NCBI GenBank assembly: GCA_965649765.1
Contig: OZ287751.1
Coordinates: forward strand, 65,720,001 to 65,784,000
Source of the DNA: Bispira polyomma
Lineage: Eukaryota
Direction of reading: 5' to 3'
Length of the DNA stretch: 64,000 bases
The position numbers were made by a program, and so were the translations under genes. This document shows positions 4,864 through 62,029 of the stretch, piece after piece (the first letter of the stretch is position 1; each line of letters opens with the position of its first letter). The notes below the pieces were generated by a model. That model made no database searches. It worked only from the letters and a program-made list of their open reading frames with translations, and was not told where the DNA came from.

Positions 4864-5224
4864 GGGGTGGTATTCACAAAAGGGATTAAATCAGATCAAA
4901 TTTGAAAAAAAGATCATCTTTTTGGATCAGCTGGGCTGGTATTCACAAAATATTTGATCTGTTTGTTTTTTTTGATCAAATAATGGATTAACTTTGATCT
5001 ATCCAACTTGGTAGATTAACTTTGGATTAGCACAGATCAAATATGGCTGACATGAAATGTTTAGGGGAAGACAGATAAAAAAACAGATCAAATATTTTGA
5101 TCTTTTCAGATCAAGTGATCTTTGCTTTGTGAATACTATTTTGATCCAAGGATCACTTGAAACTTTTTTCTCAACTTTGAGATGATCTTGATCTGATCTT
5201 AATCCTTGTTTGTGAATACCGCCC
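4864..5224. mobile_element. MITE with ~35-bp terminal inverted repeats (Harbinger-like)
   Basis: Left ggggtggtattcacaaaagggattaaatcagatcaa; right ttgatctgatcttaatccttgtttgtgaataccgccc. Confidence 0.7.
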
Positions 5225-5832
5225 AAGCGGTGTAAATTTAATCTTTAACTATGTCCAAGGCTCTACAAACTACCCCACAGACTACTTCCGGCCTTTAATA
5301 ACTGCCTCACTTATCATTTTTAGACAGGGAAGTCTGCTGTATTCATAATTTCTATTGTTAGAAACTTACGGAAAATAAAACAATATTTTGGGGGTGTTGA
5401 CTGCTTGCCGACCGCCATAGGTTCTGGAAGTAACAATTTCCTTTGGCTCCTTGTCAACAATCTAGGGGTCAAAAGGGTCAGTAATCCTAGACCTTTTGCA
5501 TTTGTATTACAGGAGGGCATTATAACTCCTCTTTTTTTAATCACACTACTAAGTGTTTCTATGTGATGTAACATCCCCACTTCAACCAGTCCTATTTATT
5601 CAAGTAGTAAATAAATTGGTCTGTATCAACAATTGCAATGTAAGTTAACCCATTAAACCCATATTTTAAAGATAAAAGTGCTTAGTATTTAACAAAATCA
5701 TCCAGACGAAAAAAAATCATCAACACCCATGAAAAAACTTAACAATCGTTTGTTCAGTTATCGGTAAACTCCATGTCAGTTTTTAGAGTGGCCTGCTTCA
5801 TTATACTGCAACACAGAGGGGTCTGTTTTCAG

Positions 5833-8800: not shown

Positions 8801-10705
8801 AAAGAGGATTCAAACCCACACTGGTGAGAAACCAGTGATTATACAGTGCTTCTAATGACTAGGCCACCATGGCCCTTTATAGGTGAAGAAAACTGTGTGT
8901 GGCTAAACATGGGTTTGTTCAGGATTAAAGTATTAATTGTGTCTAATAAAATTACTGGTCAAGGTTAAATTTAGACATTTATGCATGCACATTGTACTTG
9001 ACTAGTCTGGGTTCTATTTATTTATCAGGTTATAATTACTGTTCTGGAGTCCGTTTCCATGGTTACATGTACCCAGTATTACTCTGTACTTGCAGGCTTT
9101 GCTTTCTAACAGCCTGGTGTTCTCAGGTTATAGTCACTGTTTTGGAGTATATATCACCATGGTTGCATGTACCCACTATGTCTTTGTACTTGCAGGCTTT
9201 GCTTTCTACCAGCCTGGTGTCCTCTTTGGACTACTCCTATGGTTCACCAAACACAATTGGGCCCTCTTCTCAAGTTTTGCCTCTCTACTGTTGTCAGGTG
9301 AGTGATTCATGTGACCTGTTCTACTAGGGATAATTAACATTTTAAAAATTTAGTTGGGTTTTATGTTGCTTTTAAAAGCTGAAGTCATATATCGCGTAGG
9401 TCAGATCCAATAGTAGAAGAAATCAGTACTGAAGCCAATGTGTAAACCACCTACCTACGGCAAGTACCTGACAAACTTTCCCACATGAAGGAACAAACAG
9501 GATTTAAACCCACATTAGTAATAGACTAGTAAATGTGAAGCAAGCACTTGTGATGACTAGGCCACCGCAGATAAAACCAGGTCACAATTCATAAAGCTTT
9601 TTTTGTAAAACTACCTGAAGGAATGCGTCATATCTGTAAGGCATAAAAACCTACTTCTAATCATTCATTTGTTATTTGCGAAATCTTTCATTATATTAAA
9701 ACTGCACTAACAAAACACAAATATTCTAGATATATTATGTATGGAAAGTTTAGTGTACTTTACAGCTGTTATTTTTCTATATTTTCTATACATTGTTTAC
9801 ACCTTTTCACAAACCCTGTTATCTGTCATAGTTTTGAGTGACTTAATACTTTTCTGATATGACAATTGATATATTTTGGAAAATTAATTATAATTTTGTG
9901 GTTGAATTTTTATATTTTTCAGTTATTGTCCTCACTACATCTATATATACATGTAAATATTTCAGTTATCTTACTTACATCTGCTATATATATATTTTTC
10001 AGTTTTAAATTTCTTTTCAATTATACTTTTCACTACATGTGCTACATATTTTTTTCAGTTATCTTCCACACTACATCTGCTGTATATTTCAGTTACATTG
10101 TCTTCACTACATCTATTATATACATTTTTCAGTTATCTTCCTCATAACATCTGCTATGTATATTTTTTGTTTTTCAGTTAACTTCCTTACTACATCTGCT
10201 GTATGTTTTTATCATTACAGTTATTTTCCTTGATTACCTAAGTTCTATATTTTTTTCAGGTATCTGAACTATTTGTTGTTGTTATTTTTAGTTATGTTAA
10301 TTATTTTTTGTTGTTTTTCCAGTCATACTCCTCACGACCTCTGTGATAATGAAAGCCCTCGCGGTGTGCCTTAACAACTGTGGTGAGGTGTACGACAACA
10401 CTAATAGACAATCCAACGCCCAGCCCAACCCCTTGCTAGCAGTACTAGGGATGACGCTCTGTCTCGCCACCACTGGCATGATCTGCCTCATGATCTCCTT
10501 CTGCCGCCGCCCCGAGAAGGAGCGGGAGGAAATCGAGCCACAGCAGAGCGATCTGCTCCAGCATCCGATGCACTACCAGTCAAGTCTGCCATACCACGAA
10601 GGTTACAAGAGACACAGTCCCACAGAAGGGACCTCCCTTAAGGAGATTCAAGAGATTCCCTTTCAAAGAAACGCATATAGCAAGGGGCTTCCCCAGAGGA
10701 TGTGA
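5833..10705 (+). CDS. 3' part of an unidentified multi-pass membrane protein gene, antisense to ANAPC2
   Basis: Exon 9196-9297 (tgcag/GTGAGT) and terminal exon 10323-10705 (long pyrimidine tract + AG, GC-richer than flanks) join in frame. A candidate 22-nt exon 5833-5854 (ttttcag/GTAAGG) fits the phase but is less certain. Product LLYFYTFCFAFYQPGVLFGLLLWFTKHNWALFSSFASLLLSVILLTTSVIMKALAVCLNNCGE...LLAVLGMTLCLATTGMICLMISFCRRPEKE... has about 3 hydrophobic helices and a polar tail. Start not found. Confidence 0.7.
6030..6070 (+). promoter_or_regulatory. Candidate cis-element: two PBX/PREP-MEIS-type sites plus a GC box
   Basis: GGATTGACAG 6030-6039, TGATTGACAG 6050-6059, GCCCCGCCT 6060-6068. Motif match only. 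Confidence 0.3.
6340..6573. mobile_element. Putative MITE
   Basis: Inverted repeats gaatctaaatttagccactgaatctgaaatt and aatttcagatagagtggcaaattttagattc. Confidence 0.5.
7000..7195 (+). mobile_element. SINE-like 3' fragment with a LINE-type tail
   Basis: Homologous to 29160-29365 (ctc.gatgacca.tta.aatggtggtc...ttaaagat.cttggggac...taagtgc.ctataa.aaatgt). Confidence 0.55.
8681..8876 (-). mobile_element. tRNA-derived SINE (family A)
   Basis: Same tail, core and head as 35030-35247. Confidence 0.75.
9058..9226 (+). repeat. 100-bp duplication of the acceptor and start of exon 9196
   Basis: catggtt.catgtaccca...tgtacttgcagGCTTTGCTTTCTA.CAGCCTGGTGT occurs at 9058 and 9158. Confidence 0.85.
9345..9570 (-). 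mobile_element. tRNA-derived SINE (family A)
   Basis: Same tail, core and head as 35030-35247. Confidence 0.75.
9905..10345 (+). repeat. Degenerate ~35-45 bp array resembling the acceptor and start of exon 10323
   Basis: Recurring tttttcag/ttatcttcctcactacatctg-like units resemble the real tttttccag/TCATACTCCTCACGACCTCTG. Confidence 0.7.
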
Positions 10706-10885
10706 GAACCGATCCGTAGGGGACCTCCCTCAAGAAGATTCAGAAGATTCCCTTCTAAAGGAACACATATATCAAGAGGCTTCCCCAGAGGATAGGAGAA
10801 ACAATCATAGGGGACTTCTCTCAAGGAGATATCCTTCCAAAGAAACACATATAATGCAAGGGGCTACTCCAGAGGATGCCAGAAA
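10628..10885 (+). repeat. Three ~92-bp copies spanning the nested gene's stop codon
   Basis: GGGACCTCCCT.AAG.AGAT...CCAGAGGAT starts at 10628, 10720 and 10811; TGA 10703-10705 lies in copy 1. Confidence 0.85.
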
Positions 10886-12994
10886 GTGAGCACAGGATGG
10901 AAAGTTAAAAAAAAAAATAATGGAATATCTGTTTTACCTAGAAAAAATTCCACACTTTGCAAAACTCAAAATCAAAGTTTATACTTTAGAAATATTACTT
11001 GATATGTCGAACAACGTTTTAGGGATTATTTTAGCATTAGTTATTGTATAAAACATCAAAATTATTAGGAAAATCAAAGTCAACTGCAACCCTTCGAGGA
11101 TGTGTTTGAGGATGCAGTACCATTTCTATTATCAACACACCTTGGCAAAAGCAAGATTTGGAACATTAATAAAAGCATCCAGGCATTTTCACTGGTAATA
11201 CTTAAGGTTTTACTGTATTAGCAAGGTTGTTTTTTAAAAACTTTTTTCTCAGTCATTATCACAATCATTAATCATGTGTGTATATATATATATATATATT
11301 CATCCCTTTCTTGCAAAGCATTTAGTCATTGTATGGTTAAAATATTCATGGAATGCAATAAATAATATATAAAGACTCCAATATTGTATTATGCATTTTT
11401 AATGAGCAACAACAGAATCAATTAACCAAATGAGAAGTCCAATACCATAGCCAAAGTCGTAAGGATGGATGTGGGGATGTACAGGAGGGAACTATGGGGG
11501 AAAAGCAGCTTTTAAGATATACATGTATGTCTGAAGTTTTCTCATCAAGCCAGAAAGTGTTTCTAGTGATCTAAGCTCAACTGGGAGACTATTCTAAAAT
11601 ATGGGGACAGCAATTGATATCAGCAGTATCAGTGTGAATTTTAAATGTGGATGTGAATGACAAAACCATACATAGCATCAAATATATATTCACAAACATT
11701 CTGCGAATATTATATTTTCTTAGTACATCAGCCAATCTGAGTCTTTAAAACAATATTTTCAGCCAATCAAATGGGTTGATGCTTGATATTACAGACTAAC
11801 ACCTTTTGTAAATACAGCCATTGGTGTATGCAGTAGGACTTTATGCAAACCTGAATGTGCTTTGTAGCTGAAATCTGTTTAGCCAAATCTAAAGGAACTC
11901 AAAAAAGATCTCCACTTCCAAGAGTATATCTAGTTAACAGGGAACAATATTTTTTTGCATATGTCTTGAATGGACCACAATCTGAATTAGGCTGACAATG
12001 CAATTTTTCACTTAAATGAGTTTTACTTTATAGGTAGGTGTCACTGTGTTTAGCATAGGTTGCAAATCTGGTCAAGTTTGACTTTAAAATCACCTTTAAC
12101 ATGTCTTGTGTCATGCCATGACAGGCACTTCACTGGTGGAGGAAATCAGAACAGGATAGTTGGCTTAGGTTTTTTTCTATTTTGCAAAACCAACAGTCTT
12201 CAGCAAGTCTACTGTCAACTTTCCCACATAGATACCAGGTCTAACTTAGTCGTAACACTAGTCTAAACTATTAAACACTGCCTACTGTTAGTCTTAGTGG
12301 TAAGAGCAGAAACCCTTTCCATTGGCACAGATCACTTTTAAGACTACAAAGTTTAAAGGGGAAAACCTGGTTAACAATCACTTGGAAAACTTCAGAACCA
12401 GTTGTTGGTGTCAGAGTTAATTTTTAAAAGTTTTCACTGTCTACACAATACTTGCAAGATTTACCGGGTAAATGAAATTTTTTTCATACTTTCTGAAGGA
12501 ATATCAACTGCGAAGTCCATCAGTCTTAAACAGTTGTGCTTTTATTCTGTGCTTTAATACACTCAACATAGTAAAGGGTCAGTGAATTTGTTTTTGCGTT
12601 TTAGTTTAACATTCTTCTGATTTAAATTTTTTTTAAGAACTGGTTCTAGTTTTTTGATAAACCATCAATCAGTCAAGGAAAGTCCACAGCCCAAAACTTC
12701 AGCTCTAAAGTATCAATACTTATTTGCTTTTCTTTACACCGATTCTGTATTTGTCACATTTTCCCTCTTCATAACTAACAACATCCCTCATCCACAAACG
12801 TGTTCAAAATACCACAGTCTCACAGCTCGCCCTTCCTCTCCCACCCTAAACCCCCCCCCCCCCCCCCCCCCACGCCCAGCAGGTGTTTTATAAATGTCCT
12901 AGCCCCCTTGTTTACTTGACTTCTGTACTAAAGAAATCAGAGATAGTATATTATCTACCCCCATCCAAATCCTAAGAGGGTCCCCCAGTCCAGA

Positions 12995-13215
12995 AACAAG
13001 AGTTGTCTGTTTAAAAACATACACAGATGCAGTGTGAATTACACTATAAGATTGATAAGGCACCCCTACAAATATTAATCTGAAACTCTTCAGATTCGAC
13101 AGATTGATGATCGCTTCTAACCAATCCATGAAGTCTTTGTATCTTATTTCGAAGATGGCAGCACTTTTTTCAGAATAAAAACATTTGGCTGGGCCTGATA
13201 AAAACGGGCTGCCAA
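12995..13215 (+). repeat. Dispersed repeat, also at ~35890-36105 and split across 46660-47050
   Basis: Shared acaaga..gttgtc.ttta.aaa...cagtgtgaa and gctt..aaccaat.catgaa...aagatgg. Confidence 0.55.
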
Positions 13216-14189
13216 TTTTTTTGGCGTTCTTTTTCTATCCGATAATCACACATTTGTCTGCTATGATAGATGACTCTTTTGACAAGTAATTTGATTTACT
13301 TTGACTTGGCCATTGCACTACATATCTCTCCATGGTGTTAATCACGGATTTCTGACAAAGCAAATGTTATTTTTTCTATTAGCCACCAGTCTTTTTCTCC
13401 CGTGTGATTAGATACAATTGTGTTCTTTAGTTAAATCTAAATGTTTATTGATTCCTCAGACAGTGAGTTTTCCCACCACAGTCTAAAGACACATATTACA
13501 CAACCCTAATCTGGGACATATCAAGAGAATTTGCCAAGGAATCAAAAGAGGAAAAATCAGTTACTACCTTAAGGAAAAGACTGTTTACGTGGGAAGATGT
13601 ACCACCAACGATTTGTCGCAAATGTCAAAGTTGACTGTAAAAGCTGAATTTGTCACCGGAATAGCCATTTTTTTGGCTTGAAATGAATAGTGGTAGAGTT
13701 CTGTTTCAACATAGGGAGGGAGGAGGTCACTTCAACACCAATAACTTGAAATGTAAAAAGTAATTACAGAGTTTGGACAAAGTATACATATAACCTTAGG
13801 TCGTTGAAACAGTTTTTCATACTAATTCAGTGACAATTTAATTTCTATATTTGCCTAATTTTAGCAAATCCACATATTTTTTTCCACTTTAACCCCCCCA
13901 AAATTTTCAAGAATGATCATCATTTGATATTTAACCATACAAATTGCCCTTGACTTGTGACACAATCCAATACAACATTGTGAACTATGTTTTAGGGGCT
14001 GTATTTACTTAGTCCTTAGTGAACTATGTTTCTGTAGTACATGAAATAGTTTTCAATAATACATTACTAAATTTATAAAATTTGCATCGTCCAAATCTGT
14101 TCGGCACAATCCTAGTAGTACTGTGTCTTTTCTATATATAAAGCAAGTCTAAAACAATTGACAAAACTTGTACAGAACTGTAGCTATAT

Positions 14190-14492
14190 AAGAGTACATT
14201 ATAATACCTTGTATCAAAGGTTCAAACACGATAGAGTACATTATGACACAGTGTATCAAAGGTTCAAACACGATAGAGAATATTATGACACAGTGTATCA
14301 AAGGTTCAAACACGATAGAGAATATTATGACACAGTGTATCAAAGGTTCAAACATGATAGAGTGCATTATGACACAGGGTATCAGAGGTGAAACACAATA
14401 GAGTACATTATGACACAGTGTATTATAGGTTCAAACACGATAGAGTACATTAGGACACCGAGTATCAAAGGTGAGACATGAGTACATTACGA
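14190..14492. repeat. 42-bp minisatellite, about 7 copies
   Basis: Unit gtatcaaaggttcaaacacgatagagtacattatgacacagt; it explains the repetitive ORFs at 14149-14391. Confidence 0.9.
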
Positions 14493-15351
14493 CATTACAA
14501 CCCTCACAAACAAGCGTGCCATAAAGTGTAACTATAAATAGGACGCCCTGTTAAGAGTAGCTGCAACATATGAAAAGAAACAGGATAGCATAGAAGAACA
14601 CACATTAGCATGTGTAATGTCCACCCCATGAACCTTTTGGAACAATTGCACAGTAGTCTTACAGGACTGTTTTGTTTGTAAAATATATCAACAATGCTCC
14701 AAAATTTATTACTATACATGTAAATTATTTCAACTGCAAGGACAAAATGTCATCGGACAAAATACCGAGGGGACAAAACGGCAGTCAAAATTGCAAGGGG
14801 GACAAAATGCTGTCTAACTAAATGGTACATAACACATTTACACAAGCACTGCCTAGTAGTGTACATCATGTAACAGATTCCTGAAAAAAGCCCATCAGAA
14901 AAAATGTCCATCAAGTGAATCACATCAGCAAAAAATCCCATCAGGAAAATTGGCCATCAGCTAAAGTGATGGGTGGGAAAATCGGCCATCAATTTTGCAA
15001 AATTTCTTCACAACAGATAATTTAACTATTATTTATAAAAATCTGATGTAAGGTAATGATAAACTACATTTACAATTGATTAAGGTCCACTTTTATTTCA
15101 GGTTTATGTATAAGTTTCATAAGTTTATTTATTTAAATCAAAGGAATAGTGCATAAATTTCATGTTATTTTATTTGTACCAAAAGAAGGGTTCATAAGTT
15201 TCCTAATTTTTTATTTACAACAAAGGAAGGGTGTATGTGGTGTGTCTACTCAGGCGAGATCAAGAAAAAGCTATTGTTCGTTGTATAATCTGTGCGTGAA
15301 TTCTTTGAAAGCTCAGAAGAAATCAATTGATGGGCAGTGTGTGAGAGTAAC

Positions 15352-16607
15352 AACAAATTGCTCTATCTCGCATGGTTCAGGAGATAGAAGCAAATTTGTG
15401 TTTTTCCAGTTTTGGCAAAAATTCGAAAATTCAAAATGGCCGCCATTTTTGGGGAGAGGAAAATTTTTTGAAAATTGCCTATGGTACATCTTTTAGATCC
15501 ACTGTGGGTCGAAAATTTTGACGAAATCGCTCTATCTCGCACGGTTAAGGAGATAGAAGCAAATTTGTGTTTTTCCATTTTTGGCAAAAATTCGAAAATT
15601 CAAAATGGCCGCCATTTTTGGGGAGAGGAAATTTTTTGAAAATTGCCAATAGTACATTTCTTAGATAGTCTGTGGGTCGAAAATTTCGACGAAATCGCTC
15701 TATCTCGCACGGTTAAGGAGATAGAAGCAAATTTGTGTTTTTCCATTTTTGGCAAAAATTCGAAAAATCAAAATGGCCGCCATTTTTGGGGAGAGGAAAA
15801 CTTTTTGAAAATAGCCAATAGTACATTGATTAGATACCCTGTGAGTCTAAAATCTCAACGAAATCGCTCTATCTCGCACGGTTAAGGAGATAGAAGCAAA
15901 TTTGTGTTTTTCCAGTTTTGGCAAAAATTCGAAAATTCAAAATGGCTGCCATTTTTGGGGAGAGGAAAACTTTTTGAAAATTGCCTATAGTACATTGCTA
16001 AGATACCCTGTAGGTCGAAAATTTTGACGAAATCGCTCTATCTCACACGGTTAAGGAGATAGAAGCAAATTTGTGTTTTTCCATTTTTGGCAATAATTAG
16101 AAATTTTTTTTCAAAATTACTAAGAGTACATTGATTAGATACTCTGAGGGTCGAAAATTTCGACGAAATCGCTCTATCTCGCACGGTTAAGGAGATAGAC
16201 ATATTTATGTTTTTTGCTATGTAGCTATTACTACTAAAAGTAGCTAAGTAGCCATTGCTGAGTCAGTTATATAGCTATTATCACTAAAAGCAATCCCAAG
16301 CAAGCTATTGGCCTAACTATTGGTCATACCAAATTTGGTAAAGATATGTCAAATATTTTTCCTTAAAATTCCCGGAAACAAAAGAAGTACATAAAAGTAA
16401 GTAAGTAGCTATTACTCAGTTAGCTATGGAGCTATCTTCACCAAAAGCAATCCCATGCAAGCTATTAACCCAATAAACACCCATACCAAATTTGGTAAAC
16501 ATAGGATAAATACTTTTCCTTGAAATGACCGGAAACCAAACGTGACGGACGGCAGACGCCGGAAAAAGCAAAAATAATATGTCCACCCCCCACTGAGGTG
16601 GACATAA
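15352..16607 (+). mobile_element. Non-autonomous Helentron/HINE-like element with internal ~170-bp satellite (~5 copies)
   Basis: Repeats cgctctatctcgcacggttaaggagatagaagcaaatttgtg... at 15360-16200, a GACG microsatellite remnant near 16543, and a terminal hairpin TATGTCCACC..GGTGGACATA at 16578-16606. Family assigned from architecture only. Confidence 0.7.
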
Positions 16608-17085
16608 CTACCACAATAGTGGACGTTCTACTCTGTATTATGTAATAACTATAAAAACTATTTTCTGCAGTATAAAGCTTGCAAGCTTACCCTACCATTT
16701 TAAACTGATATTTATCGTTGTTCTACATATGACTTTCTTTACTGGACTACAATATAGAAGCTATCTTCAGTAGTTTTCCTTGAAATGAGTGTTTATGATT
16801 TTTTAATTGGCAGCTACGGCAGCCACCTTTGTTGCATTTGGCCCTAAAACCTGCCAAAGCATGCTATACACATGTTAAACCAATGTATTATACTTGGTGA
16901 GGATATCTAGAGTAATTTTTCATTAAATGAGTGGAAACTGTTTTTACGTTGATGACAGCCATCGTTTTCCTCAGAAATCAGTGCCTAAATCAATGCCAAG
17001 CAGGCCATGTCCTTGACAACCTGTGTATTAAATTGGGGGAAGATATCTGTAATTGTTTTCTTCCAAATGACCAGAAAACACACTT

Positions 17086-17456
17086 CTGTTCTATGTACCT
17101 CACACCTTACCTCCTCTGTTGACTGTTTTATCTATCTCACACCTTACCTCCTCTGTTGGCTGTTTTATGTATATGACACCTTGCCTCCTCTGTCAGCTGT
17201 TCTATCTATCTCACACTTACCTTCTCTGTTGGCTGTTCTACCTATCTCATACTTTACATCCTCTATTGGCTGTTCTATCTATCACACACCTTACCTCCTC
17301 TCTCGCTGTTCTATCTATCTCACACCTTACCTCCTCTGTTGGCTGTTCTATCTATCTCACACCTTACCTTCTCTGTTGGCTGTTCTATCTATCTCACACC
17401 TTACCTTCTCTGTTGGCTGTTCTATCTATCTCACACCTTACCTCCTCTGTTGGCTG
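17086..17456 (-). repeat. Tandem array (37 bp unit) spanning the ANAPC2 exon 10 donor
   Basis: Unit CAGCCAACAGAGGAG/GTAAGGTGTGAGATAGATAGAA. Donors at 17441 (real), 17404, 17367, 17330, 17294, 17257, 17220, 17184 (GC variant), 17147, 17110. Confidence 0.95.
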
Positions 17457-20400
17457 CTGCTGGCCTTTATTCTCCTTTTCTTTCTTCTCTGCCATGTTGG
17501 TATTCAGCCTCTTCGAGTCAGCCACATCTTTTAACATCACCTCACAGGAGTGAAGCTGTGTCTCTCCAAACCTGTGGTAAAATATATCTGTTACCATAAC
17601 ACATGTAGACACCTGTACAAGACTGTATTGTATTAAAATTTATACTCAGTGCAATTATCTACCTTTATCTGGTATTTAAAAAAAGCTAATTACCATTTTT
17701 TCACTGTTAACAGCCAACCAGCAAGAGTTACCTATCATTCCCCAAACTTAAGCGATAGGCTTGAGAATAATTATTTACCAATGTCCCAAAGAGCTTTAGC
17801 CTGCCACTGGGGAAAAGGCACAATGACCCAATCACATAGGGCAGCCATATTTAGTGGTAATCTAAGCCACTATGTATCTGCCTGTACTCATTCGCCCCAG
17901 ACTTGGATCAAACATGCGTCATCTGTGTTCCTGAGTGAGTGTGTTACCCACTGGTCAAAGTGGTGGATAAATTAGGTCTAGGGTGCATACTTGCACACTA
18001 TTACACACTGGGTATTCAACGAGCATTCGAGACTCACTGAAAGACTCCATTTTACTAGGAATCGTGTTCATATTTCCAACTTCATTCCTCAAAAGTAATG
18101 GGTTATCACTCACGCAATGTTCAATATACATAAGAATGATCACACACCTGAGTTTGAGTAGTTCTGGGTAACACACCTGTATCTTGTTACACACCTGAGT
18201 TTGAGTAGTTCTGGGTAACACACCTGTACTTTGTTATACACCTGAGTTTAAGTAGTTCTGGGTAACACACCTGTACTTTGTTATACACCTGAGTTTAAGT
18301 AGTTCTGGGTAACACACCTGTACCTTGTTACACACCTAAGTTTAAGTAGTTCTGGGTAACACCCCTGTACTTTGTTACACACCTGAGTTTGAGTAGTTCT
18401 GGATAACACACCTGTACCTTGTTACACACCTGAGTTTGAGTAGTTCTGGGTAACACACCTGTACCTTGTTACACATCTGAGTTTGAGTAGTTCTGGGTAA
18501 CACACCTGTACCTTCTTACCCACCTGAGTTTGAGTAGCTCCAGGTAGCGTATTTCTTTCTCTGTATCGTAGTTAAAGTGTGTGAGTATCCTGTCAGCCAG
18601 TAGAGTCTGGTACTCGGTCACAAACAGCTCCTTACTGCCGTAAATGTTCACCAACATACTGATGATGTCAGAGCTACGACGACTGGACGACTTCACTGCA
18701 AACAACACAATAGATCACAAATTTATAATGATGTAGTGTTATTGCTGGTACTAATGAGCAAATTGGTTATGAATCGTGAGATCGATGTTAAACACGAAAA
18801 TATATCAATATCAGCTGATATCAGTGTAAATTGCAGAGTTACTAATAAGCTATGTTCTTTTTTATTGCCACCAGGACCTGAAGGCCAAAATTTTACCATC
18901 TTTGGTCAAATCATCAGGCCCAAATCTTAGATTTAAGATTAAAACTCTGCTAAGACCTTAAAAGAATATTAGGTCTGTATTCTAAGAATATTCGCGCATA
19001 TGACCCCATTTAAGCCTTCTATAGTGTCATCATGTGCTGTTTTGTACTAAAATGGAATATATTGTCTACCATTAAGAGCGGAAAATTTTTTTTCAATAAA
19101 AAAAAAATGGTTTAAAAAAACTTTAAAAAGTTAAAAATGCTCCACTTTTTTTTTAGTGATTTAAATCAATTGAATCAAAAACAACCCTGATGGAATGTTA
19201 ATGAATATTTGTCACGTACATGGATCAGCATCCACAGGATCCGGCTGCCAGTTCTCCCAGTCACTCGTATCATCATCGCTATGGTAACTCTCATCTAAGA
19301 CTAGAGGCTGAGCTTTCACCAACTCATCACTGAGTTCTGTGTTACCATCTTCTGTCAGGGAGGAGACGATACAGCGGACAGTGTCCTCACGATGTCTAAA
19401 GGGATGGACAGAAGGTATTAAAAACATACATACAGAAAACAGTGTCCTTACAATGTCTGAAGGATAGACAGAAGGTATTAAAAACATACATACAGCAAAC
19501 AGTGTCCTCACAATGTCTGAAGGACAGACAGAAGGTATTGGACATACATACAGCAGACAGTGTCCTCATGATGTCTAAAAGGATGGACAGAAGGTATCAA
19601 ACACATACATACAGCGAACTGTGTCTGACAATGTCTAAAGGGATGGACAGAAGGTATTAGACACATACATACAGCGAACAGGTATTAGACATTTGTTTTC
19701 ACATACATACAGACTACTGTATACTCGCAAAGTCTAGAGGGATGGACAGAACGTATCAGACACATACATACAGCGAACAGTGTCCTCACGATGTCTGAAG
19801 GGTTGGACAGAAGGTATAAGACACATACATACATCAAACAGTGTCCTCACGATGTCTGTAGGGATGGACAGAAGGTATCAGACACATACGTACAGCAAAC
19901 TGTGTCTGACAATGTCTGAAGGGATGGACAGAAGGTTTAAGACACATACATACAGCCTACAGGTATGAGACATTTGTATACACATACATACACACTACTG
20001 TATACTCGCGACGTCTAGAGGGATGGACAGAAAGTATTAGACACTGCTATACACATTCATATAGCCTATTGTGTCTACTACTAAATACAGTAAAGTTCAC
20101 ATAATTACTTTAATTTGCCATGTTAGAATTAAAATAACACATTCCAAAGCATGGTATTAGGTAATTTTTACCATTCTTGGAGCGTAGAAAGACTCAGGCT
20201 TCCCTTTAGTCTTACTATGGCTTTAATCACAGTTAAAATTATGTCACAGTATAAATGTAGATTATTAGAAACTTTAGATTTACGAGAGCGAAATTGAGTG
20301 CATTGAATCATATATTTGGATAATAAAAGTTTGGACAATAGGATTTTCTAGATTTTGTTTGGATAATAGAAGAGGCCTTTTAGTGTAAAACAATAAGAAA

Positions 20401-23400: not shown

Positions 23401-26400
23401 GGATACAGAAAACATATCCAAAATCAGACTTCATATTAAAATTCAGTGTTGAAAGCTCTATTAAAACGAATGGTCACAAGTACAGGTTATTGCCATGCAC
23501 AAGGATTTCCACATAACCTATATTTAAGTTGAGTACAAAACATCAGTAAATTTTGAGAATGCCAGCCCAGAAGTTCAGATAACGGAGAATCTACTGTATA
23601 TTACACACACACACCTGCTGTAATATAGTTAGGTACTGCTTCTCAAAGTTCCCCTGACACGTGTGCTCGACATGTTGTTGTATACGAGCGTGGATGTGTG
23701 ATGTTACAGCCTCCCCAGATACACACTCCAGTAGACCAAGCTCACGTCTGCACAAAAACAGTATAAACAAGCAAATTCAGAGAATCGTTTTCCCCCATTT
23801 TGGGTGAAATCCATCACAGGGTATGGTCAGCAGCACCAACACAAAGTCAAAAAATTTGCACTAAAAAAACAGTTGCCATTAAAACAACTTGGGGATTCAT
23901 TAGATCTTACTCTGGGTAAGGGAGTTGGTCTGATGATCAGAAGGTCTAGGTATATACTTACAGCCACAGTGTTCAGTATGACCTCTAACTCCAAGTATGA
24001 CCTCTAAGTATATACTTACAGCCCCTGGTTGAGGTGGTAGAACGTGTTCAGTATGACCTCTAAGTATGACCTCTAAGTGTATACTTACAGCCTCTGGTTG
24101 GGGTGGTAGAATATGGTCAGTATGACCTCTAAGTGTATACTTACAGCCTCTGGTTGAGGTGGTAGAATGTGGTCAGTATGACCTCTAAGTATATACTTAC
24201 AGACTCTTGTTGAGGTGGTAGAATGTGGTCAGTATGACCTATAAGTATATACTTACAGCCTCTGGTTGAGGTGGTAGAAAGTGTTCAGTATGACCTCCAA
24301 GTATATACTTACAGCCTCTAGTTGAGGTGGTAGAATGTGTTCAGTATGACCTCTGAGTATGACCTCTATAAGTATATACTTACAGCCTCTGGTTGAGTTG
24401 ATAGAATGTGTTCAGTATGACCTATAAGTATGACCTCTATAAGTATATACTTACAACCTCTGGTTGAGGTGGTAGAACGTGTTCAGTATGACCTCTATAA
24501 GTATATACTTACAGCCTCTGGTTAAGGTGGCAGAATGTGTTCAGTATGACCTCTATAAGTATATACTTACAGCCTCTGGTTGAGGTGGTAGAATGTATTC
24601 AGTATGACCTCACAGTGACACTTCTCTCTCTCCTCCTCACAACCCTCACAGCGTAAACACTCCACCTCAGACTCATCCAGGTCTGAAAGTACATTGTAAA
24701 TAGTGAAGTAGGAGGGATGAGGGGCATTTTCTATAGCATAGGTGTGACAAGGGGGGAAGCTAAACACTCTATATCTGCATTATCTTAAATATAGGTGTGA
24801 CAAGGTGTAAGGTTGCTGTGATTAAATGAAGTACAGGGGTAGAGGTGAGGGGAGTTAAACAATAACTAGTTGTCTCAGGAAATAGAAAGCTAAATATAGG
24901 ATTCCTGAAGTAAAGATTTGGTAAGTTACACATTGGAGACATGCGATTAACTGAAGTACAAGTGCAAGTCATTAGGGAGCTAATCATTACATTACTTTGA
25001 TTACGTGAAGTACAGCTGTGACAAGATGGGTGAGCTAATACAGGATGTCCCCAATTACCTTAAGCTTAAATCATCTAAAATGCATATCATGCTATGTTCA
25101 CAGCTGTTGACATCTAAAACATGAAAGAGCAACTCTAACATATAGGACACATATACTTACATAAAGTCATAAACTATCACTTGAATTTTTTCTAAACATA
25201 TTCAAATGTGTCTCTACCTTTTCATATTACATTATTATATCATTGAAACACCCTTTTTACTTATTAAAGGCTGACAGTTTGCACACCTTAATCCTTGCAC
25301 CCTTTTATCCTTACCTGTGTGTGACTTTGTATTGTTGTCATACGCCTTAAACGAAAGTACATAGAAGTTGTTCAACGCGTCTATGAAGTGTTTATTGGCC
25401 TGGTAGAATACCACAGACTTCAGTAGGAGCATGATGTGCTTGTTTGGGTCTACATAGGGTAGGGCAGATGTGCAGGGCATATCTGTGATGTTCGAGGCAA
25501 TGTAGTTCTGTAGTACTCCCAGCCTCTGGACAGACGCCCAGTATTTGTCAACTTCGGAGAGCAGCTCATCGAAGGCAGTACTGAGCTGAGACACAACATC
25601 CTCCACTGGACTGCTAAAATGTCTCCAAAACTTGGGATGGAGCTCTGATGTCATCTTGTGCTGCAGCGTTTGGAGAAACCACTCGGTAATCACAGAGGCC
25701 ATCTGGTTTTCACACAATACATCAACAGCATGTTGTAACTCTGCTGTCTGCAAAAAAAGTGGGAGAAAAAAACCTTTTACAAATTATGTTAGCATAAAAT
25801 ATATATAGATAAGGATTTAAAAAATAGACACAATATTATAAATAGGACAGCGATGGTTGCAAAAAATTAAGGTCAGCTAGTTATTTGCCACGAGCGAATT
25901 ACTTGTATTGGCTCTGAATAGTTGTTAAATATTTTAAAATTGTTTATGCTACTGAAAAGCTGCTACAACTTAGTCATGATTTCCCCACTTCTAACTGTAC
26001 TTTGACTTGTGCTCAATAAGGTTTTATCTGGGTTTAGCACAATTTATTGGATTTTGTACCTTCAATCAATAGCAATAGTTCAGGAAAATTCTACTTGTAA
26101 TTGATAAAATGCCATGTCGGAAATGTTTTACCTTAATTTGTGTCAAAAATATGCCAAATTACAATGGTAGGCACAACTCTTTTCTCACCGGTGGCAGACT
26201 AAATAATGCCTAGAGGTGTATCAACTGATTTCGAGACATCTCACCCTGTATTCCAAAACCTGCTGTAAATTACAGGAAAGCTCGCCCTGTGATATAAGTT
26301 GCCCCAGATATTTAATTAAAGTAATATATAAGTACTGCAACATTATCACAAATATAGTTTTTACGGCCATGTTTTTACTCGAATTGTGGAAGAAAATATA

Positions 26401-32012: not shown

Positions 32013-35000
32013 TCAGACATGATTGGATTTCTTATATTTTGTCTGCCACATTTCCCATAGATGTCCTGTGACTTCCGTCGTTATAATATGGTTACTGTGG
32101 TGGGCAATGAGCCTCAAAACAAACACACCGTCCACCTTCAGATAGTGTCTCGTAAACTCGGAAATCTCATCGGGATCTCTGATTGTGACGGCAGTATTAT
32201 CATTTTTTGTGAAATGCAGATGGTTGCTGACAAAGCGTGTCCCATCTCCGGGGATGCAGATATATAAGAGCCACTGGACGAGTCCGAGGATAGAGATTGC
32301 GGCTACAAGGGCCATCCAGAACCAGAGGAACATGTAGACCTTCTCGTTGATACGGTTCAATGGCAAGTTACACTGAACTGTGTATCTCTGTACATTGCCT
32401 GTAATATAATAATAATTAAAGCATTTTTCAGAGCGCAAAAAAGGGGCCGTATTCACGAACAAGTGAAATATTTTTTCACTTACTTTCCAAAGTAAGTAAA
32501 TTTTTCCAAAGATTTCCTGAGAAGTGGTATTCACCAACAAGTGAAAAATTCTACTTACTTACGTTTTACTTAGAATCCAAGTTAGGAAAGAAATCTAAGG
32601 TACCTCATCTCCTTACTTAAAATCTAATAAGTTTTTTCTCCAAAGTAAGTAAGTTTTCTTTAGTGAATACCACTTGGATCTAAGTTAGTAAAAAATAGCC
32701 ACAATACTTGAAATCTAAGTTAGGAATGGGATTTCACTTGTTTGTGAATACAGCCCCTAATATCCAAAAAGGGAAGGTCCAGGGGCAAGCAAAGGCCGTC
32801 AGCAAAAACCATCCACCGGGGAAGGGTGACTAAGGGGGGTTGGGGAGAGAGAAGGGTTGTAGGCTGTCTGAAAAGGCACGTTTTGAGATGGCTTCTGAAA
32901 CCAGTGATTTAATTCTGACAGTCTGTGGGAGTTTCTTCCATTCAGCAGGAGCTCAGACAGCGAAGCAGCCCTGCCGACTTTCCTATTTCGTCGGGTGTAG
33001 GAAAAGGAGAGGTGCTTTCCCCAAGTAAGGCTACTAAACTTGATGAGTGACAACAAATAAGGAGGTTAGTTTAGTTTAATAGCTTTGAACACAAGAAGGT
33101 TGTAAGGAATATGTGATAGTGTGTAAATGGGTGTGTTTGTATCTGCTTTTTAAATAGACCAAAAAACATCTCATGAAGCAATTAATTGGTAATTATAGTT
33201 GTTTTGCGAAGTAGACAACAAAGTACAAACATAAAAATGGCCATATATCTGTTTACACATGATAGACACTTAATGTTATCTTGAACATGTTTTTCATACA
33301 GAGTGAGATAATATAATTAATTTAGATGATATAAATTAGTCAATCAATATAGCTTTTACTTTCATTATCATTAAAATAATTTGTACTACTTTGGGAATAT
33401 AGGCCAAAAGTGCAAAATTGCTAAAAATATTTTCGATTTCAGCTGAAATCAGCAAACAGATTATCTCTTAAAACTGACATCATATGTACTGTGCAGTAAA
33501 AAAAAACCCCAAACTGGTTTGCAATAAAGTATTGTGACACCAAACTCCCATGTCATATGTATATTACGTAAAGGACAACCAATTTGTAAAAATCTGTAAA
33601 CACACCTAAACTGACAGGCATTTTGTACAGAAAAAAGTAAAATTTAAATGTATATTTGAAAACAAATAACAGGTCAAGATTAATCCAGTTATTTCTACAC
33701 CCTGCTGACTTGATCCAGTAATTTGTATTCGCCTGTATAATGACAGTATGTATTTATTATTAGATGTAAACTAAGCATCAATTAAAAACTACAAACAAAA
33801 TTTTTTCATGATAATTTTATTTGATTACAGTTTGAAATGACATTTAAATTAAGTTAATAACTTCAATGTATTTTAAGTGGTAAACAGGTGAGAAAAATTC
33901 ACAATGTTTTCAAGCAATAATTAGGACATTTAATTTATTGTCAATCCATTAAAACAAAAATGTTCACAAAAATGTGTACTGTTTTTAATGATTCTCAGTT
34001 TATTTGATAGCCCTTAATTGTTTCAGTCAGACAGAAAAGCGCAGGATCTGAATCTATCTTAATAGTATAATATCTGCTACTTGTCACATGATACTCTTGA
34101 ATTTAACCTAAATTCCCTGTGTCTGCTTTCTAAATAGACCAAAAAACATCTCATGAAGCAATGAAGTAGTAATTATAGTTGTTTTGCGAAGTAGACAACA
34201 AAGTACAAACATAAAAATGGCCATATATCTGTTTACACATGATAGACACTTAATGTTATCTTGAACATGTTTTTCATACAGAGTGAGATAATATAAATAA
34301 TTTAGATGATAAAAATTAGTCAATCAATATAGCTTTTACTTTCATTATCAATAACAAATTTGTACTACTTTGGGAATATAGGCCAAAAGTACAAACTTGC
34401 CGGAGATATTTTCGATTTCAGCTGAAGTCAGCGAACAGATAATCTGTTAAACTGACGTGATATGCGGTGACAGTAAAAAAAACCCAAACAGGTGTGCATT
34501 GAAGTATTGTCACACCAAACTCCCACGACATATGTTTATTCTTTACCAAACTGCCATGACATATGTATATTCCCTAAAGGACAACCAATTTGTAAAACTG
34601 TGTAAATCTAAACTGACAGGCATTTCGTACAGAAAAAAAGTAAATTTTAGATAAATATTTGACAAAGAAATAACAGGTCAAGAACAATCCAGTTATTTCT
34701 ACACCGTGCAGAGTTGATCCAGTAATTTGTATCCGCTTGTATAATGATCGGTTTCCATAAATGCATAAAAGTCATCTTTACACTTCATATACATACATGT
34801 CCATGCTTGCATGTGAGGATGATGGAAGTGGCCTGGAATATTAACTTTTTTGGTAGCAGAACCAAAAGTTTAGGCTTAAGATACCGAACAAAATGCTAAA
34901 TAAATTATTTAAAAATTGACCATTAATAAAAAAGTATAATGCCTTAAACAGTTAGATTGATAAAGAAAGTAATTTTGCTTTATTCCCATCTCTAGGTCTG

Positions 35001-38000
35001 TTATGTACAGATGACAAACACATTTGTATAGAATTTGAATTTAGTTGGGTGTGGCTTAGGTCATATCGTGACGGCCATATTCAATGATGGAAGAAACCAG
35101 TGCTGAAGCCACTGTAAACCACCACCTACAGTAAGCACCTAACAAACTTTCTCACATGAAGAAACAAACAGAACTTGAAGCCACATTGGTGAGAGACCAG
35201 TGATTGTGATGTGGGGCACTTCAAACCACTAGGCCACCGTGGCCCCTCACGTGTGTATGGAAACACTACCTTACAAGTTTTGGCATGACTTCAGCCGAAG
35301 TCAGCAAACTGACCAGATTATCACATATCATGACATAATGCTTTAACACCAAAAATAGAATTTTTGAAGTATTTACCTGAACTTGGGCTGAAACTACACA
35401 TTGCATATGTTTTTCAGTCTTTACATATTTATTTACTACATGTGATGAATGAAAGACTGGTCTGGTAAAAAGAGCACAGTTACTGTACACAAGTGAAAAT
35501 TAATTTTACTGATAAGCTTTGATAGCAAACATTTACTTGTCAACAGTGAAAATACATACACAGGTGAATTTGTTCAGAAATTACAAACTAGTAGAATTTC
35601 ATTTGGAAACTTAAATAGTATTTATAGTAGGGTATTAATTAGTATTATTAAGTCTTACAAGCTATAATAAACCATGTGTTATTTAATGTGTAATGTTTTT
35701 GTGTAAAACTCTCACCATTGTTGTGCAATACTTTTAGCAAGAGATAAGGAATATATGTAGATCACATTTGAAGTGGGTGTTTTCTGTGTATGTGATGGGA
35801 CTCACAAGTGCAGTTCAAACAAAGCTACTTGTAAATCTAAATGCAAGGGAAATGGCTAAGTAATTATGCAACCAATTTATCATGCTAAGACAAGACATCA
35901 GTTGTCCTTTAGAAAAGATAAAGGCACACAGTGTGAAATATACACTTACATTGATATATGGACACTATACACTCAGTCAGATCTGACACTGCTCAGTTTA
36001 GACAGCTCTTTTGCTTCCAACCAATCCATGAAAGCCTTACATATTATTTTTAAGATGGCGGCATCCCCTTTCAATGGTGGCGCCCTTTTTTGAGTCTGAT
36101 AAAAAAGGAAATGTTTTTTACCTAGCCTACGCACGTTGAAGTCACACATTGTCACCCTTGGGAATGCATCGAATGGGGCATCCTGCCAATCATGGTCTGA
36201 GGCCACGCCCCCCATGACCTCAAAGCCGTAGGAGCTGAACTGGTTAAACAGGAAGTAGTCCAGCAAGAAGAACTGACCAATGGCATTGGCAATGTACATC
36301 AGTTTGGTAAAGAAAAACAGGAATAGCAGAAAGCCTGGCACCCTAGTGAGGAAGAAACATTGCATTGTATTCAAATATATTTGGGTTGGTACTCAGTATT
36401 CAATTAGCTTCATTTGGATCTGCACCACAATTTAATGGGTTTCTTCCTTGGTCAAAGGACCTGGCCCTTCAAGAGAGAAATTGGGTCACTAGTTTTTGTG
36501 TAATCCTGCTTACAAAGAAACCAAAAGACAGAGGGCAAAAACATAACATTCTTTTGGTTTAGGTAATCGCGTCTACAGACTTATGCCAAATTTAAGATTG
36601 ATATTCACTATAAAGTTTAGCCAAAATTAAGAATCAAATATGTCAAAGCTACCTATTATTATTTTAAGTCTCCAAATGAGTAAGGTTTATATAGTAATAT
36701 ATATATTTGCTAGTCACTCACTTTTCTCCACACAGATGGCTCACGTAGTATATGGCTCGCCTGCAGGCGTTATACTGTTTAGTTTCCCCATGATTTCTGG
36801 TTTTCACCAACCTAAAATGAAAGTTGAATAATATCAAAAAAAAATGTTAGGCACTGAATGAAAAATTATCAAGAATATAATGTGAGATTAAAATTAAGCT
36901 TTTTTTCATTCACTAAAATGTGAAAAAAGCAATGTAAATGTTGCAATCTGAATGTTGCAATTACTAAAATTCGAATGTGAATTCTGTAAATCAATCTGGC
37001 CATCACTGACTATGTGATAATAATTATATGGCTACTTGGCTACTTTTTTCCTCCAAACAATCACTTATGGCCTCTGTGACCTGGTGGTTAGGGTGCTTGA
37101 CATCGGACCAGGGGATCCTAGGATCGATCCTTGATCTTGACATTATACTGGACATAAATTTGTCTTTCTCTAATCAGGTGTAGAATTAAGTAAGTAGACA
37201 CTAATAGATGTTATTTTTTTAACCGTATGTGGTCAGTATGCTCTTTTTGGAAATAGAGTAAACAAATAGTTTATTGGATTGTTTGTAAATTTAAAAGGTT
37301 GAAAGAGCATTTCTTTGAGGATGATATCAGGCCATAATGCCCTGCAGTATATATAACTCCTATTATTGGAACATGTTGGAGGACAAAGCTTTGTTCGGAT
37401 AATAGAAGCTTCACAGTAAAAAACAAATGGAAAAAGTAAATGTGGGAGAGTTTGAAAATATGTTTATAAAATTAAATGTTCAGAAGTTCAGATAATAGAG
37501 ATTCTGCTGTAATCACATTTTCATGTACATTTTTAACTTACTCGTGCATAAGGCTAGAAACCCACATGCACATCTACTTACTGGTGGATCATGTTGGCTA
37601 TCTGTGGAGCCTTATCAATCCCTCCACTGTCTCCAGCCAGCTGTATAATGTCGTCTGTATCTACCACTCCTCTGTTGTTAAAATTGTGCCACATGAGAGA
37701 GGGCAGGGTAAACAGAGCAGCCTGTGTACAAACCAAAAGAGAGGGTACAGGGGAATAACGGCATCAGGAGATGCCAAAAAATGCACAGAAAGAACAACTT
37801 TCAGCATTGGAGACATTAAAATCACTACCCGTGAAAGACTAACAGCATCAGGAGATGCCAAAAAGTACAGAGAAAGACCTAAACATGGACAGCTCTCAGC
37901 ATTGGAGACATTAAAATCACTACCCGTGAAAGACTAACGGAATCAGGAGATGCCAAAAAGGACAGAGAAAGACCTGAACATGGACAAATCTCAGCATTGG

Positions 38001-41000
38001 AGACAATAAAATCAAGACTTTAGACACTATATTAAAAATTGAAGTCATCTTGAATTTTTGAAATTTAGTTGGGTTTTACGTCACATTGTTTTGCATTATT
38101 TTATGGTGGTACATATTTTCAACATGCTTTATTGATGCGAGGCATCTTCCAAAGCATAACAACCAAATCAATCAACCAATCATGTACCCTACAACATAGG
38201 CTGGGTCGTCTTCAGTAGGCAATGGCATGTTCACATCTTGCCCAAGGATGTTATACCACTAATGTTTCTAGTGACATTAGCCAGGGACCTGGTGATCACC
38301 AGACCAACTCCCTAACCAGGCTACAGGAAACCACAAAAATCAGTCAGATCAGGACTTTCCCAGATGCATGGTCAAATGAGTGAACCCACATTGGTTAGAG
38401 GCTTTTTACCACTAGGCAATCACGGTTCACCCCAAAAAGGCAACAAGAAAATACCCAATGTATTATAGGTCAACGTTATCGTGACAATACCCAATATGTT
38501 AAGGGTCATAGTTCTTCTGATAAAAGCCAGTTTGGCAAAAGAGTAGAGTCATAATGAAAATGGACTTTTTGCTTAAAGGTCACAGTCATTCTTATAATGG
38601 TCAACATTGTAAATATCAGAGACGCCAATGGAATGCGCTATACAATTAAAGTCTAAATCATCTTCACAATGCAGAATATCTTAAAGGTGATTATCAAAGT
38701 ATTTATGACCACTGATACACCCATGCCTTTATTGAAATTTGTAGCGAACATTACCTTCCTGTGATGTAGTCTGGGCATGATGGTGAGGTTAAGCTAGACA
38801 CCACTCTGAGGTTAAAGGTCAGACCATGATAACAGCGCCCAATGAATTATTTGTATCATAAACATAAACTTGCGGCCTAGTTTTGAAAGGTGCATACAAG
38901 ATTTGTCTTCAGTAAAAAGTTTAGAACATACCTTTTAATATTGTAAAATAATTTAACAGAAAAATCACGCCTTGCCATTGTTAGGTAAATTGTTACATAA
39001 AGTAATGTTAGAGGGAAAAATAACTTACATAAAAAAATCTGAAATAAAATGGTCAAAATAAAAAGAATTTTAAGCTAAAACGCCAAAAGAATATATGAAA
39101 TGAAATTTTGAAAAATGCACTTTCAGTTATATAAGATTACTAAAATTAGCAACCACCCTCGCTTATCTCTTTGTTTACAAGATCACTTTGTTTTCAAAGA
39201 AGTAGCATGCATCTGATATTATTTTAAAGAGTCCATTAATATTCAAGTGGGTACAAGCAAACAGAAGTACACCTACTCGAGATTAAAATTGTAATGCATA
39301 AGACTAATGCATGTTGTATACTGCCCTTCCTTTTATGGGTAATAAAAACACTTTACAAAATGATGATGTAAGCTGACGATGATGTGGGCTGTATTTATCT
39401 GATCAAAGTACTATTGCTATTAGTTACAAAAAAACCCAAAGAGACTTGATTCACGAGCAATACTTTCCTAATATTCCTGACTTACATTCCAAGTTTTTCT
39501 AACATGTTTTAAAGTGACTTAGATAAAAGTGTGATTTACAAACATTCATTCCAGCCCAGCGGGAAAATCCGGGTTTTACTGGGCAATACTGGGTAATACT
39601 GGGCAATACATATATGCCCCCCAAAATATGTGTGTTAATGAACTTTAAGACTTGACTGTGCATTGAGTTATTGTTGTGGTCCCTAGACAACAAATTATTA
39701 AATTTCATAAGAAGAAAAAACTTTATTTTTAGAAAATAAAGCTAAAGAATATCTTTTAGGAATAAAGCAAAATTTATGCAATATTATATGTATGCTTTAA
39801 AGCATTGTCCAGGTCATACAATGAAGACATACAAACTGACACATACATAAACAAACTATGCATTTTTAAACAATTGTGTACAAAAGCTTTTTCCTGGTTC
39901 TAGGCTGTTTGGTCATATTAATTGCAATTTACTTGTCACACACACACCACATCCAAATCTGTCACACCTCACACCTTGCACTAAATTGAGTGGCTAATCC
40001 TTTCTGTCACAGAATACATTTTATTTGACATTTGATGTGGGGTCACACTGATTCAGTTAAAGCTGAGAAATAGACTTGGCCTTCAAAAGTTAGTTCAGTG
40101 TCATAGGTCACTGAGTAAAATTGAAATTGACTGGTAAAAGTATTTACTGACCGACATAATATTTTTATTTTACAAATGTACATATATCTACTATCATAGT
40201 ATTATTGCATGTGAATTTACATAAAAAATGTTAATAAAAAAATTTATTATTGAAGGCCTTTTTGAAATGAATAATGGCACTGCCCACATTTCCTAGTATT
40301 ACCTACATTTTGGAGAATTACCTGCCCCTTTTGGAGTATTGCCCTCTTTTGGGAGTATTGCCCACTTAGGGGTATTGCCCAGTACAGGTTAACCTGGGCA
40401 GGTTTTTTATCTCAACCCTGAAATGTGGGATAGGTGGAAGTCCTTGTAAATAGAATTACCCTATACTTGTGTCTATTCTTTCGTATTAACAGGACTTTTA
40501 GAGCTGAATTCAAACGTGCAGCCATTTTTCTTCCACTCTAGCCAGAGATACCGAGACCTTATATTTTACCTTGAGTCTGAGTTGAGCTTAGCATCTTTTG
40601 AGAATATGACCAATGGTGTGTTTAAACATATTTGCTTTTATATTTCGATTTATTTATTCATATATACATGTATAATACATACCTACATATTGATATGTTA
40701 TACATAATATTTAAGGTTATTGATCATTACATCAACAATTGTGAAGAAAAAAACAATTGTAAAATCGACACCATGCAAGATTTTTGATCAAAGCCGAGTT
40801 GATCTTATTTGAATGTTTGTATTTGTTACAGTTAAGGTGTTATCCAAGTAACGCCAATCTTTGAAAGCTCCATATTGTTTTCAAAGTTGTCTGTGTTGCA
40901 TATCTTTTATCGAGTTGGTACTCGAAGCCATGTCACCCCTCTTCTCAAAGTTCAATTCTATATCGCACCCTCCTTAAACTAAATATTCTTGTTGTTGAGG

Positions 41001-61710: not shown

Positions 61711-62029
61711 TCCACTAAGTGTTTTTCTTATTATTATTTGGTTCGAGTTTCTTTCAATTATTTAAAACAATTGTAAAAAAGACAAAATATTTAGACAGAT
61801 TTTGAAAATAAAAAAATGCATGTTCAAGTTCGTCATATAGGCCCTGTGACACCCTACTTAGGATATTGTCTGACGTTACAATCGGAACAAAAACATTTCT
61901 GATGGATAATAAGGCATTGTATTTGGCATAACATATGTATCAGTGAACAAGTTTACTTTTGTTTTCAAAAAGGAAGAATGGTATTTATTGATGTATTTAT
62001 TAGGTGATTCAATCAAGTTTGTGATTGTT

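What the first reader, a model, noticed from the sequence alone, without database searches (positions are those of the whole stretch)
23950..24611. Eleven GTAAGT donors at ANAPC2 exon 3, all distal ones behind an in-frame stop
All ten intronic copies retain GTAAGT while substitutions accumulate in the exon-derived part. The real junction reads CTG TAA, so use of any distal donor includes a premature stop. Each unit also has TAG or a variant just before the exon-derived 40 nt, forming AG..GT pseudo-exons. Some units contain a nested 13-nt sub-duplication. The distal end abuts a fragment resembling the family-B SINE head (~23913-23950). How the first of many equal donors is chosen is an open question.
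Basis: partly seen in the sequence, partly recalled or inferred. Interest (0 to 1): 0.7.

Follow-up and report, generated by a model that had tools for sequence, protein, structure and literature searches.

The report
Splice-donor "mirage" minisatellite in ANAPC2
The end of one exon of a cell-cycle gene, with its splice signal, has been copied ten times into the intron behind it; this repeat type is already known from lancelets, is common in this genome, and is likely harmless because the splicing machinery would pick the copy nearest the exon start.

Summary
Observation confirmed: eleven GTAAGT donors lie in a 56-71-nt tandem array at ANAPC2 exon 3, with TAA in frame behind the first. It is a "mirage" minisatellite as described in amphioxus, and the scan has noted mirages before in this genome (PAICS) and in others. 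It is not special here: 7 of 25 ANAPC2 junctions carry one, and 48 of 363 donors and 44 of 361 acceptors sampled genome-wide are duplicated. Donor conservation is unremarkable (P=0.14 in this array; pooled GT single-copy changes 12 against 13.1 expected). The stop is generic (35 of 52 array-free phase-2 donors have one). No RNA of this species was available. What the work adds: arrays start at exon edges about 3 times more often than in intron background, also span stop codons (3 of 12), and variants shared between copies are biased to synonymous changes while single-copy variants are not, so the copies are likely re-seeded from the working exon.

The parts
23945..24612 (-). Mirage array: working exon end plus ten intronic copies; unit about 40 nt of exon 3 end + about 16-18 nt of intron start
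24571..24682 (-). ANAPC2 exon 3 (112 nt; numbering assumes one unlocated upstream exon)
   Evidence: spliced contig of relative X4 joins 25315|24682 and 24571|23747; tblastn
24565..24570 (-). First (working) donor CT|GTAAGT, 5.3 bits, weak for this genome; TAA at 24569-24567 is in frame
23956..24512 (-). Ten distal GTAAGT donors (G at 24512, 24454, 24383, 24312, 24256, 24200, 24144, 24088, 24019, 23961), 4.1-5.7 bits
24414..24426 (-). 13-nt sub-duplication between two ATACT words of the unit
24343..24355 (-). 13-nt sub-duplication
24050..24062 (-). 13-nt sub-duplication
23962..23993 (-). Last unit: 19-nt sub-duplication and loss of 17 exon-derived bases
23913..23947 (+). Fragment of a high-copy repeat (SINE-head-like; label from recall), antisense to the gene, at the distal edge of the array
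23748..24570 (-). Intron 3, 823 nt (214 nt from the last donor)
23615..23747 (-). ANAPC2 exon 4
25315..25747 (-). ANAPC2 exon 2
19369..20044 (-). Second mirage: acceptor of exon 8 (19395-19220), about 60-nt unit
18142..18537 (-). Third mirage: donor of exon 9 (18695-18524), 47-nt unit, 8 copies
17086..17456 (-). Fourth mirage: donor of exon 10 (17571-17442), 37-nt unit, 8 copies counted

Best explanation
This is a mirage minisatellite: a 56-nt piece spanning the ANAPC2 exon 3 donor is repeated head to tail into the intron, and it is likely near-neutral because exon definition would pair the exon's acceptor with the nearest (first) donor while any rare use of a later donor would be removed by nonsense-mediated decay. 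Origin (inferred): a tandem duplication at a 2-nt GA microhomology, growth by slippage or unequal exchange, and 13-nt sub-duplications by slippage between two ATACT words in the unit. The copies keep GTAAGT because they are young (6% from the exon) and are likely re-seeded from the working first unit, not because distal donors are selected. Shown: anatomy, prevalence, neutrality of single-copy changes, first-donor use in a relative's spliced contig. Inferred: exon definition in this species, decay of leaky transcripts, re-seeding.
For: Fits the published description of mirages (PMC3087553 passages; PMC3902484 passage). 7 of 25 ANAPC2 junctions carry arrays of 5 or more copies; 38/223 + 10/140 donors and 25/229 + 19/132 acceptors genome-wide are duplicated. 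Relative X4's spliced contigs use the first donor here and the exon-nearest acceptor at exon 8. Introns of 250 nt or less are rare: 0 of 53 array-free and 0 of 20 array-bearing introns, and both flanking introns here are long (632, 823 nt). Identical donors under exon definition: upstream used exclusively in human minigenes (PMC9225289 results). Donors 4-11 would make exons of 299-721 nt against a 99th percentile of 313 nt in the sample. In 45 arrays, single-copy changes are synonymous in 57 of 192 cases (0.29 expected), shared minority changes in 44 of 102 (P=0.0016), majority differences in 34 of 48. GT single-copy changes 12 against 13.1 expected. Human ABCA7 VNTR: one-unit retention is about 2% and independent of length (PMC5954066 section 21).
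Against: No RNA of this species; X4 is a relative (about 5-10% different in exons 2 and 4) whose gene may lack the array, and low-depth contigs drop rare forms. The last donor leaves a 214-nt intron, short enough for intron definition, which favours the downstream donor in the human data. Splicing rules are borrowed from human cells. The shared-minority bias, the only class that needs re-seeding, is significant in discovery (33 of 75) but not in the independent set (11 of 27, P=0.21); the majority class is explained by ordinary synonymous change in the exon after the array arose. Divergence hardly rises with distance from the exon (0.097, 0.103, 0.113). AG in acceptor copies is under-mutated (1 change against about 8.5 expected, 25 columns), which strict neutrality does not predict.
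Confidence: 0.78

Rival explanations
1. The array is a regulatory device: distal donors drain ANAPC2 transcripts into nonsense-mediated decay, and copy number tunes the dose.
For: All ten copies keep a donor as strong as the weak real one; every distal use includes TAA; in 25 of 40 donor arrays at least one copy scores as high as the real donor; ABCA7 VNTR length does change skipping of the next exon (PMC5954066).
Against: No excess conservation of GT; a shared-allele deficit at GT in discovery (2 against 6.4) did not replicate (3 against 1.1); stops are generic; arrays also span stop codons where no splicing occurs; they occur at about 1 in 8 junctions of myosin, kinesin, dynein and other genes.
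Confidence: 0.08
2. Same harmless outcome, but without re-seeding: duplications simply arise more often in or at coding DNA, those wholly inside exons are purged, those that straddle an edge survive and then drift apart from the exon.
For: Explains edge enrichment, stop-codon arrays and the synonymous majority class; background rate rises with GC (2.8% to 5.0%); shared-minority bias is not significant in replication.
Against: GC matching leaves 37 donors against 9.3 expected and 25 acceptors against 9.8; pooled shared-minority variants are still synonymous-biased (44 of 102); enrichment is stronger for long arrays (5.9-fold for 5 or more copies against 3.05-fold), as expected if a maintained template keeps arrays alive.
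Confidence: 0.3
3. The units act as 40-nt AG..GT poison exons or as stepping stones for recursive splicing.
For: TAG precedes the exon-derived part in 9 of 10 units; the exon 8 acceptor copies score above the real acceptor and end in a GTATGT word; AG is under-mutated in acceptor arrays.
Against: Unit acceptors here score at most 5.4 bits with no pyrimidine tract, and lie 14-18 nt behind the previous donor; X4's contig shows no such inclusion (weak).
Confidence: 0.04

Closest known systems
Amphioxus 'mirage' minisatellites (Adh3, globins BflGb6 and BflGb9, troponin C, PGBD5); passages read in PMC3087553 and PMC3902484; the original Adh paper (Canestro 2002) was not held and is known only through these
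   Same: Tandem copies of an exon-intron boundary, at either side, unit 10-160 nt, many copies keep GT or AG, regular splicing reported as unaffected.
   Different: Here in a lophotrochozoan-like genome (innexins present; best named innexin hit is an annelid at 47%), counted genome-wide (about 13% of sampled junctions), enriched at exon edges, also at stop codons, and tested for selection. The passages read describe single loci only.
Human ABCA7 intron 18 VNTR (PMC5954066; passages and section 21 read)
   Same: Tandem array starting at a splice donor, each unit offering a donor; use of the second donor gives a decay target.
   Different: The ABCA7 unit starts at the GT and was not described as carrying exon sequence; it has measured isoforms and a length effect on exon skipping. 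Neither is measured here.
Cross-exon proximity rule for competing 5' splice sites (PMC9225289; abstract, results part 1 and section 9 read)
   Same: Identical donors behind one acceptor, long flanking introns, upstream donor expected.
   Different: Shown for two donors in human cells; here eleven donors in an invertebrate, with a short residual intron behind the last.

Membership tests
Mirage minisatellite | Tandem repeat whose unit spans an exon-intron boundary | tested here: met
Mirage minisatellite | Minisatellite-sized unit (10-160 nt in PMC3087553) | tested here: met
   56-71 nt
Mirage minisatellite | Copies 81-100% alike | tested here: met
   2-6 differences in 52 columns among the 10 full units
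Mirage minisatellite | Copies keep splice signals | tested here: met
   10 of 10 keep GTAAGT; 291 of 322 donor copies keep GT in the discovery set
Mirage minisatellite | Regular splicing unaffected | tested here: inconclusive
   Only a relative's spliced contig; no RNA of this species
Mirage minisatellite | Length instability between haplotypes or cells | tested here: inconclusive
   Contigs cannot span this array; three near-identical myosin exon copies carry the same array at 12, 16.8 and 24 units
Regulated unproductive splicing (poison donor or exon) | Alternative event introduces a premature stop | tested here: met
   TAA at 24569-24567, but generic
Regulated unproductive splicing (poison donor or exon) | Alternative site under purifying selection | tested here: not met
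Regulated unproductive splicing (poison donor or exon) | Alternative junction seen in RNA and stabilised when decay is blocked | not testable with these tools
   no RNA holder listed

The most novel reading that the evidence does not exclude
Mirages are not splice-site repeats but coding-edge repeats: in this genome about one junction in eight, and stop codons too, anchors a minisatellite whose intronic copies are repeatedly re-templated by the working exon, so that non-coding DNA carries the exon's codon constraint. That would explain why such arrays persist, and would give tens of thousands of natural tests of how the spliceosome picks among equal sites.
Probability: 0.35. Interest if true: 0.6.

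Novelty: new member of a known kind. Interest (0 to 1): 0.3.

Why it matters
The single array is ordinary for this genome. Its value is as a clean member of a class that is frequent here: essential genes tolerate up to 20 or more equal splice sites beside the real one, which makes the cross-exon proximity rule testable at scale in an invertebrate, and warns that gene annotation and short-read mapping can pick the wrong copy. If re-templating holds, it also gives a reason why mirages survive, which the papers read leave open.

Tried and rejected
No RNA holder listed for the stretch; no conclusion on expression drawn. A strong apparent conservation of GT in copies (16 against 33 expected) was rejected: the probe was centred on the junction and the control columns included free positions; with exon-side ascertainment it fell to 6 against 8.1, P=0.24. 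A GT deficit among shared alleles did not replicate. Donor-over-acceptor preference (17% against 11%, P=0.10) reversed in replication (7% against 14%). Weakening of the nearest copy: no (motif mismatch 0.074 against 0.070). Arrays favouring short introns: not significant after collapsing repeats in both classes (P=0.24). RNA structure hiding distal donors: all eleven are predicted paired alike, uninformative. Rfam: only two chance-level hits. Pfam did not recognise exons 2-4 and the first homology search found nothing. Kinase and UCH hits were dropped whole because the fetched loci were mostly long single-exon matches. Literature: searches listed no genome-wide count of mirages or report in annelids or molluscs; the library lacks most subscription papers, so this is weak. 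No supplements were read; they may hold further mirage data.

Full report
The observation. The window is G000:C4:65720001-65784000 of a 1.035-Gb genome. On the minus strand, 24612-23945 is a tandem array with eleven GTAAGT words spaced 56-71 nt apart. The first follows a 112-nt exon of ANAPC2: exon 2 matches PDB APC2, exon 9 matches named ANAPC2 proteins, and the gene has one locus, its last four exons lying about 65 kb beyond exon 10. A 680-nt contig of run X4, a relative, joins exons 2, 3, 4 and 5, with exon 3 ending at the first donor; at the joint the relative reads G where this genome reads A, a synonymous difference, so the tool shows the cut one base shifted. Exons 2-10 joined this way are open for 515 codons. 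Reading past the first donor gives CTG TAA. DNA contigs of X1-X3 cover parts of the array with almost no differences.

How the array is built. Each unit is about 40 nt of exon end plus 16-18 nt of intron start; the two parts meet at a shared GA, and the unit holds ATACT twice, 13-15 nt apart, which accounts for the nested 13-nt duplications in three units and a 19-nt one in the last (sequence; mechanism inferred). Copies differ from the exon by 6% and from each other by 7%. The distal end meets a fragment of a high-copy repeat, which I read as older intron sequence; I found no sign that it drives the array, and did not test this across arrays.

Fourteen of 52 columns vary among the ten full units; a given 6-column block is invariant with P=0.136, and an exon-derived 12-column block is invariant too. 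The stop is what a phase-2 intron starting GTAA gives: 35 of 52 array-free phase-2 donors have it. With matrices trained on this genome, all eleven donors score 4.1-5.7 bits and the unit acceptors at most 5.4, against 7.6 and 9.4 for the real acceptors.

It is one of many. ANAPC2 itself has arrays of five or more copies at 7 of the 25 junctions examined (exon 1 was not located), and one across its stop codon. For a wider count I took Pfam exon hits in G000. Discovery: 256 of 302 listed hits for myosin, kinesin, AMP-binding, aldehyde dehydrogenase and HECT; 8 over 450 nt and 9 near-identical duplicates were dropped, leaving 239. A junction 24-mer recurs in the adjoining intron at 38 of 223 donors and 25 of 229 acceptors. 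Replication: 149 of 177 dynein and SNF2 hits, 7 duplicates dropped: 10 of 140 donors and 19 of 132 acceptors. Junctions were called by matrix, not by RNA, and the genes are conserved multi-exon families, not a random sample. Introns here are rich in tandem repeats anyway (15% of background probes), but array edges fall in exon ends 3.05 times more often than in intron background (bootstrap by segment 2.3-3.8; replication alone 2.5, 1.5-3.8; donors alone in replication 1.8, 0.7-3.1, not significant), and 5.9 times for arrays of five or more copies. Stop codons are spanned in 2 of 11 terminal HECT exons (a twelfth row was not terminal and is left out), so the anchor may be the coding edge rather than the splice signal; the numbers are small.

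Selection on the copies. In 45 arrays of four or more copies, CpG-prone columns left out, changes in a single copy are synonymous in 57 of 192 cases (0.29 expected), shared minority changes in 44 of 102 (P=0.0016) and majority differences in 34 of 48. New changes in copies thus look neutral, including at GT (12 against 13.1). The majority class needs only synonymous change in the exon after the array arose. The minority class suggests that copies were seeded from the exon more than once, or are exchanged with it; this was significant in discovery (33 of 75) and had the same direction without significance in the independent 13 arrays (11 of 27). Alleles within an array are not independent and several classes were tested. 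One result runs against plain neutrality: AG in acceptor copies shows 1 change against about 8.5 expected over 25 columns.

How the first donor is likely chosen. Carranza et al. (PMC9225289; abstract, results part 1 and section 9 read) report that equal-strength donors in long-intron context favour the upstream one, exclusively so in minigenes with identical donors, and that short introns favour the downstream one. Short introns are rare in my sample (0 of 73 at 250 nt or less), the introns around exon 3 are 632 and 823 nt, and the later donors would make unusually long exons. The weak point is donor 11, 214 nt from the next acceptor. The human ABCA7 VNTR (PMC5954066; passages and section 21) shows what leak can look like: about 2% use of the second donor, subject to decay and independent of length. 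All this is analogy; no RNA of this species was listed.

Comparison with what is known. Ebner et al. (PMC3087553, passages) and the PGBD5 paper (PMC3902484, passage) describe mirages in amphioxus with the same anatomy and no effect on regular splicing. The array meets four of six features and two are inconclusive. I recalled the term before the look-ups; earlier notes of this scan reached the same label for PAICS in this genome and for two windows in other genomes. The searches named under Tried and rejected listed no genome-wide treatment.

Verdict. A real, well-formed mirage, a new member of a known kind, most likely near-neutral. Interest 0.3. The class-level results (edge enrichment, stop-codon arrays, codon imprint on shared variants) are the part worth following.

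Noticed in passing
L219:1412-1558 (G000:C4 about 65662911-65663057); HECT exons at C1:4966917 and C6:805191: Tandem arrays span the stop codon of ANAPC2 (50 nt x 2.9) and of 2 of 11 terminal HECT exons, where there is no splice site.
   Followed up: partly
16 acceptor arrays pooled from G000 loci and the window: AG in acceptor copies is under-mutated: 1 change against about 8.5 expected over 25 columns, in both samples; unexplained.
   Followed up: partly
window 19369-20044: Exon 8 acceptor array: several upstream copies score above the real acceptor (9.3, 9.1, 7.2 against 5.4 bits) and end in a GTATGT word, yet the relative's contig uses the last acceptor.
   Followed up: partly
window 1-17441 and G000:C4:65672000-65720000: ANAPC2 intron 10 is about 65 kb long, far longer than its other introns; contents not examined.
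   Followed up: no
L043, L044, L045: Three near-identical copies of one myosin exon on C11, C8 and C13 carry the same 53-nt donor array at 12, 24 and 16.8 units; near-identical HECT exon copies also recur on several chromosomes.
   Followed up: no
L251-L278: About 25 long single-exon ubiquitin-hydrolase ORFs, many near-identical and many within 300 kb of chromosome ends; possibly carried by a mobile or subtelomeric element.
   Followed up: no
L014-L038: A dispersed family of single-exon kinase ORFs of 411-419 codons on many chromosomes.
   Followed up: no
L169:4283-5102: A minisatellite of about 50-nt units built from the same SINE-head-like repeat that abuts the ANAPC2 array.
   Followed up: no
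window 32016-45048, minus strand: A multi-exon innexin gene; junction arrays not tested.
   Followed up: partly
window 59438-61761, minus strand: Broken reading frames resembling a hAT-type transposase (label from recall, not searched).
   Followed up: no
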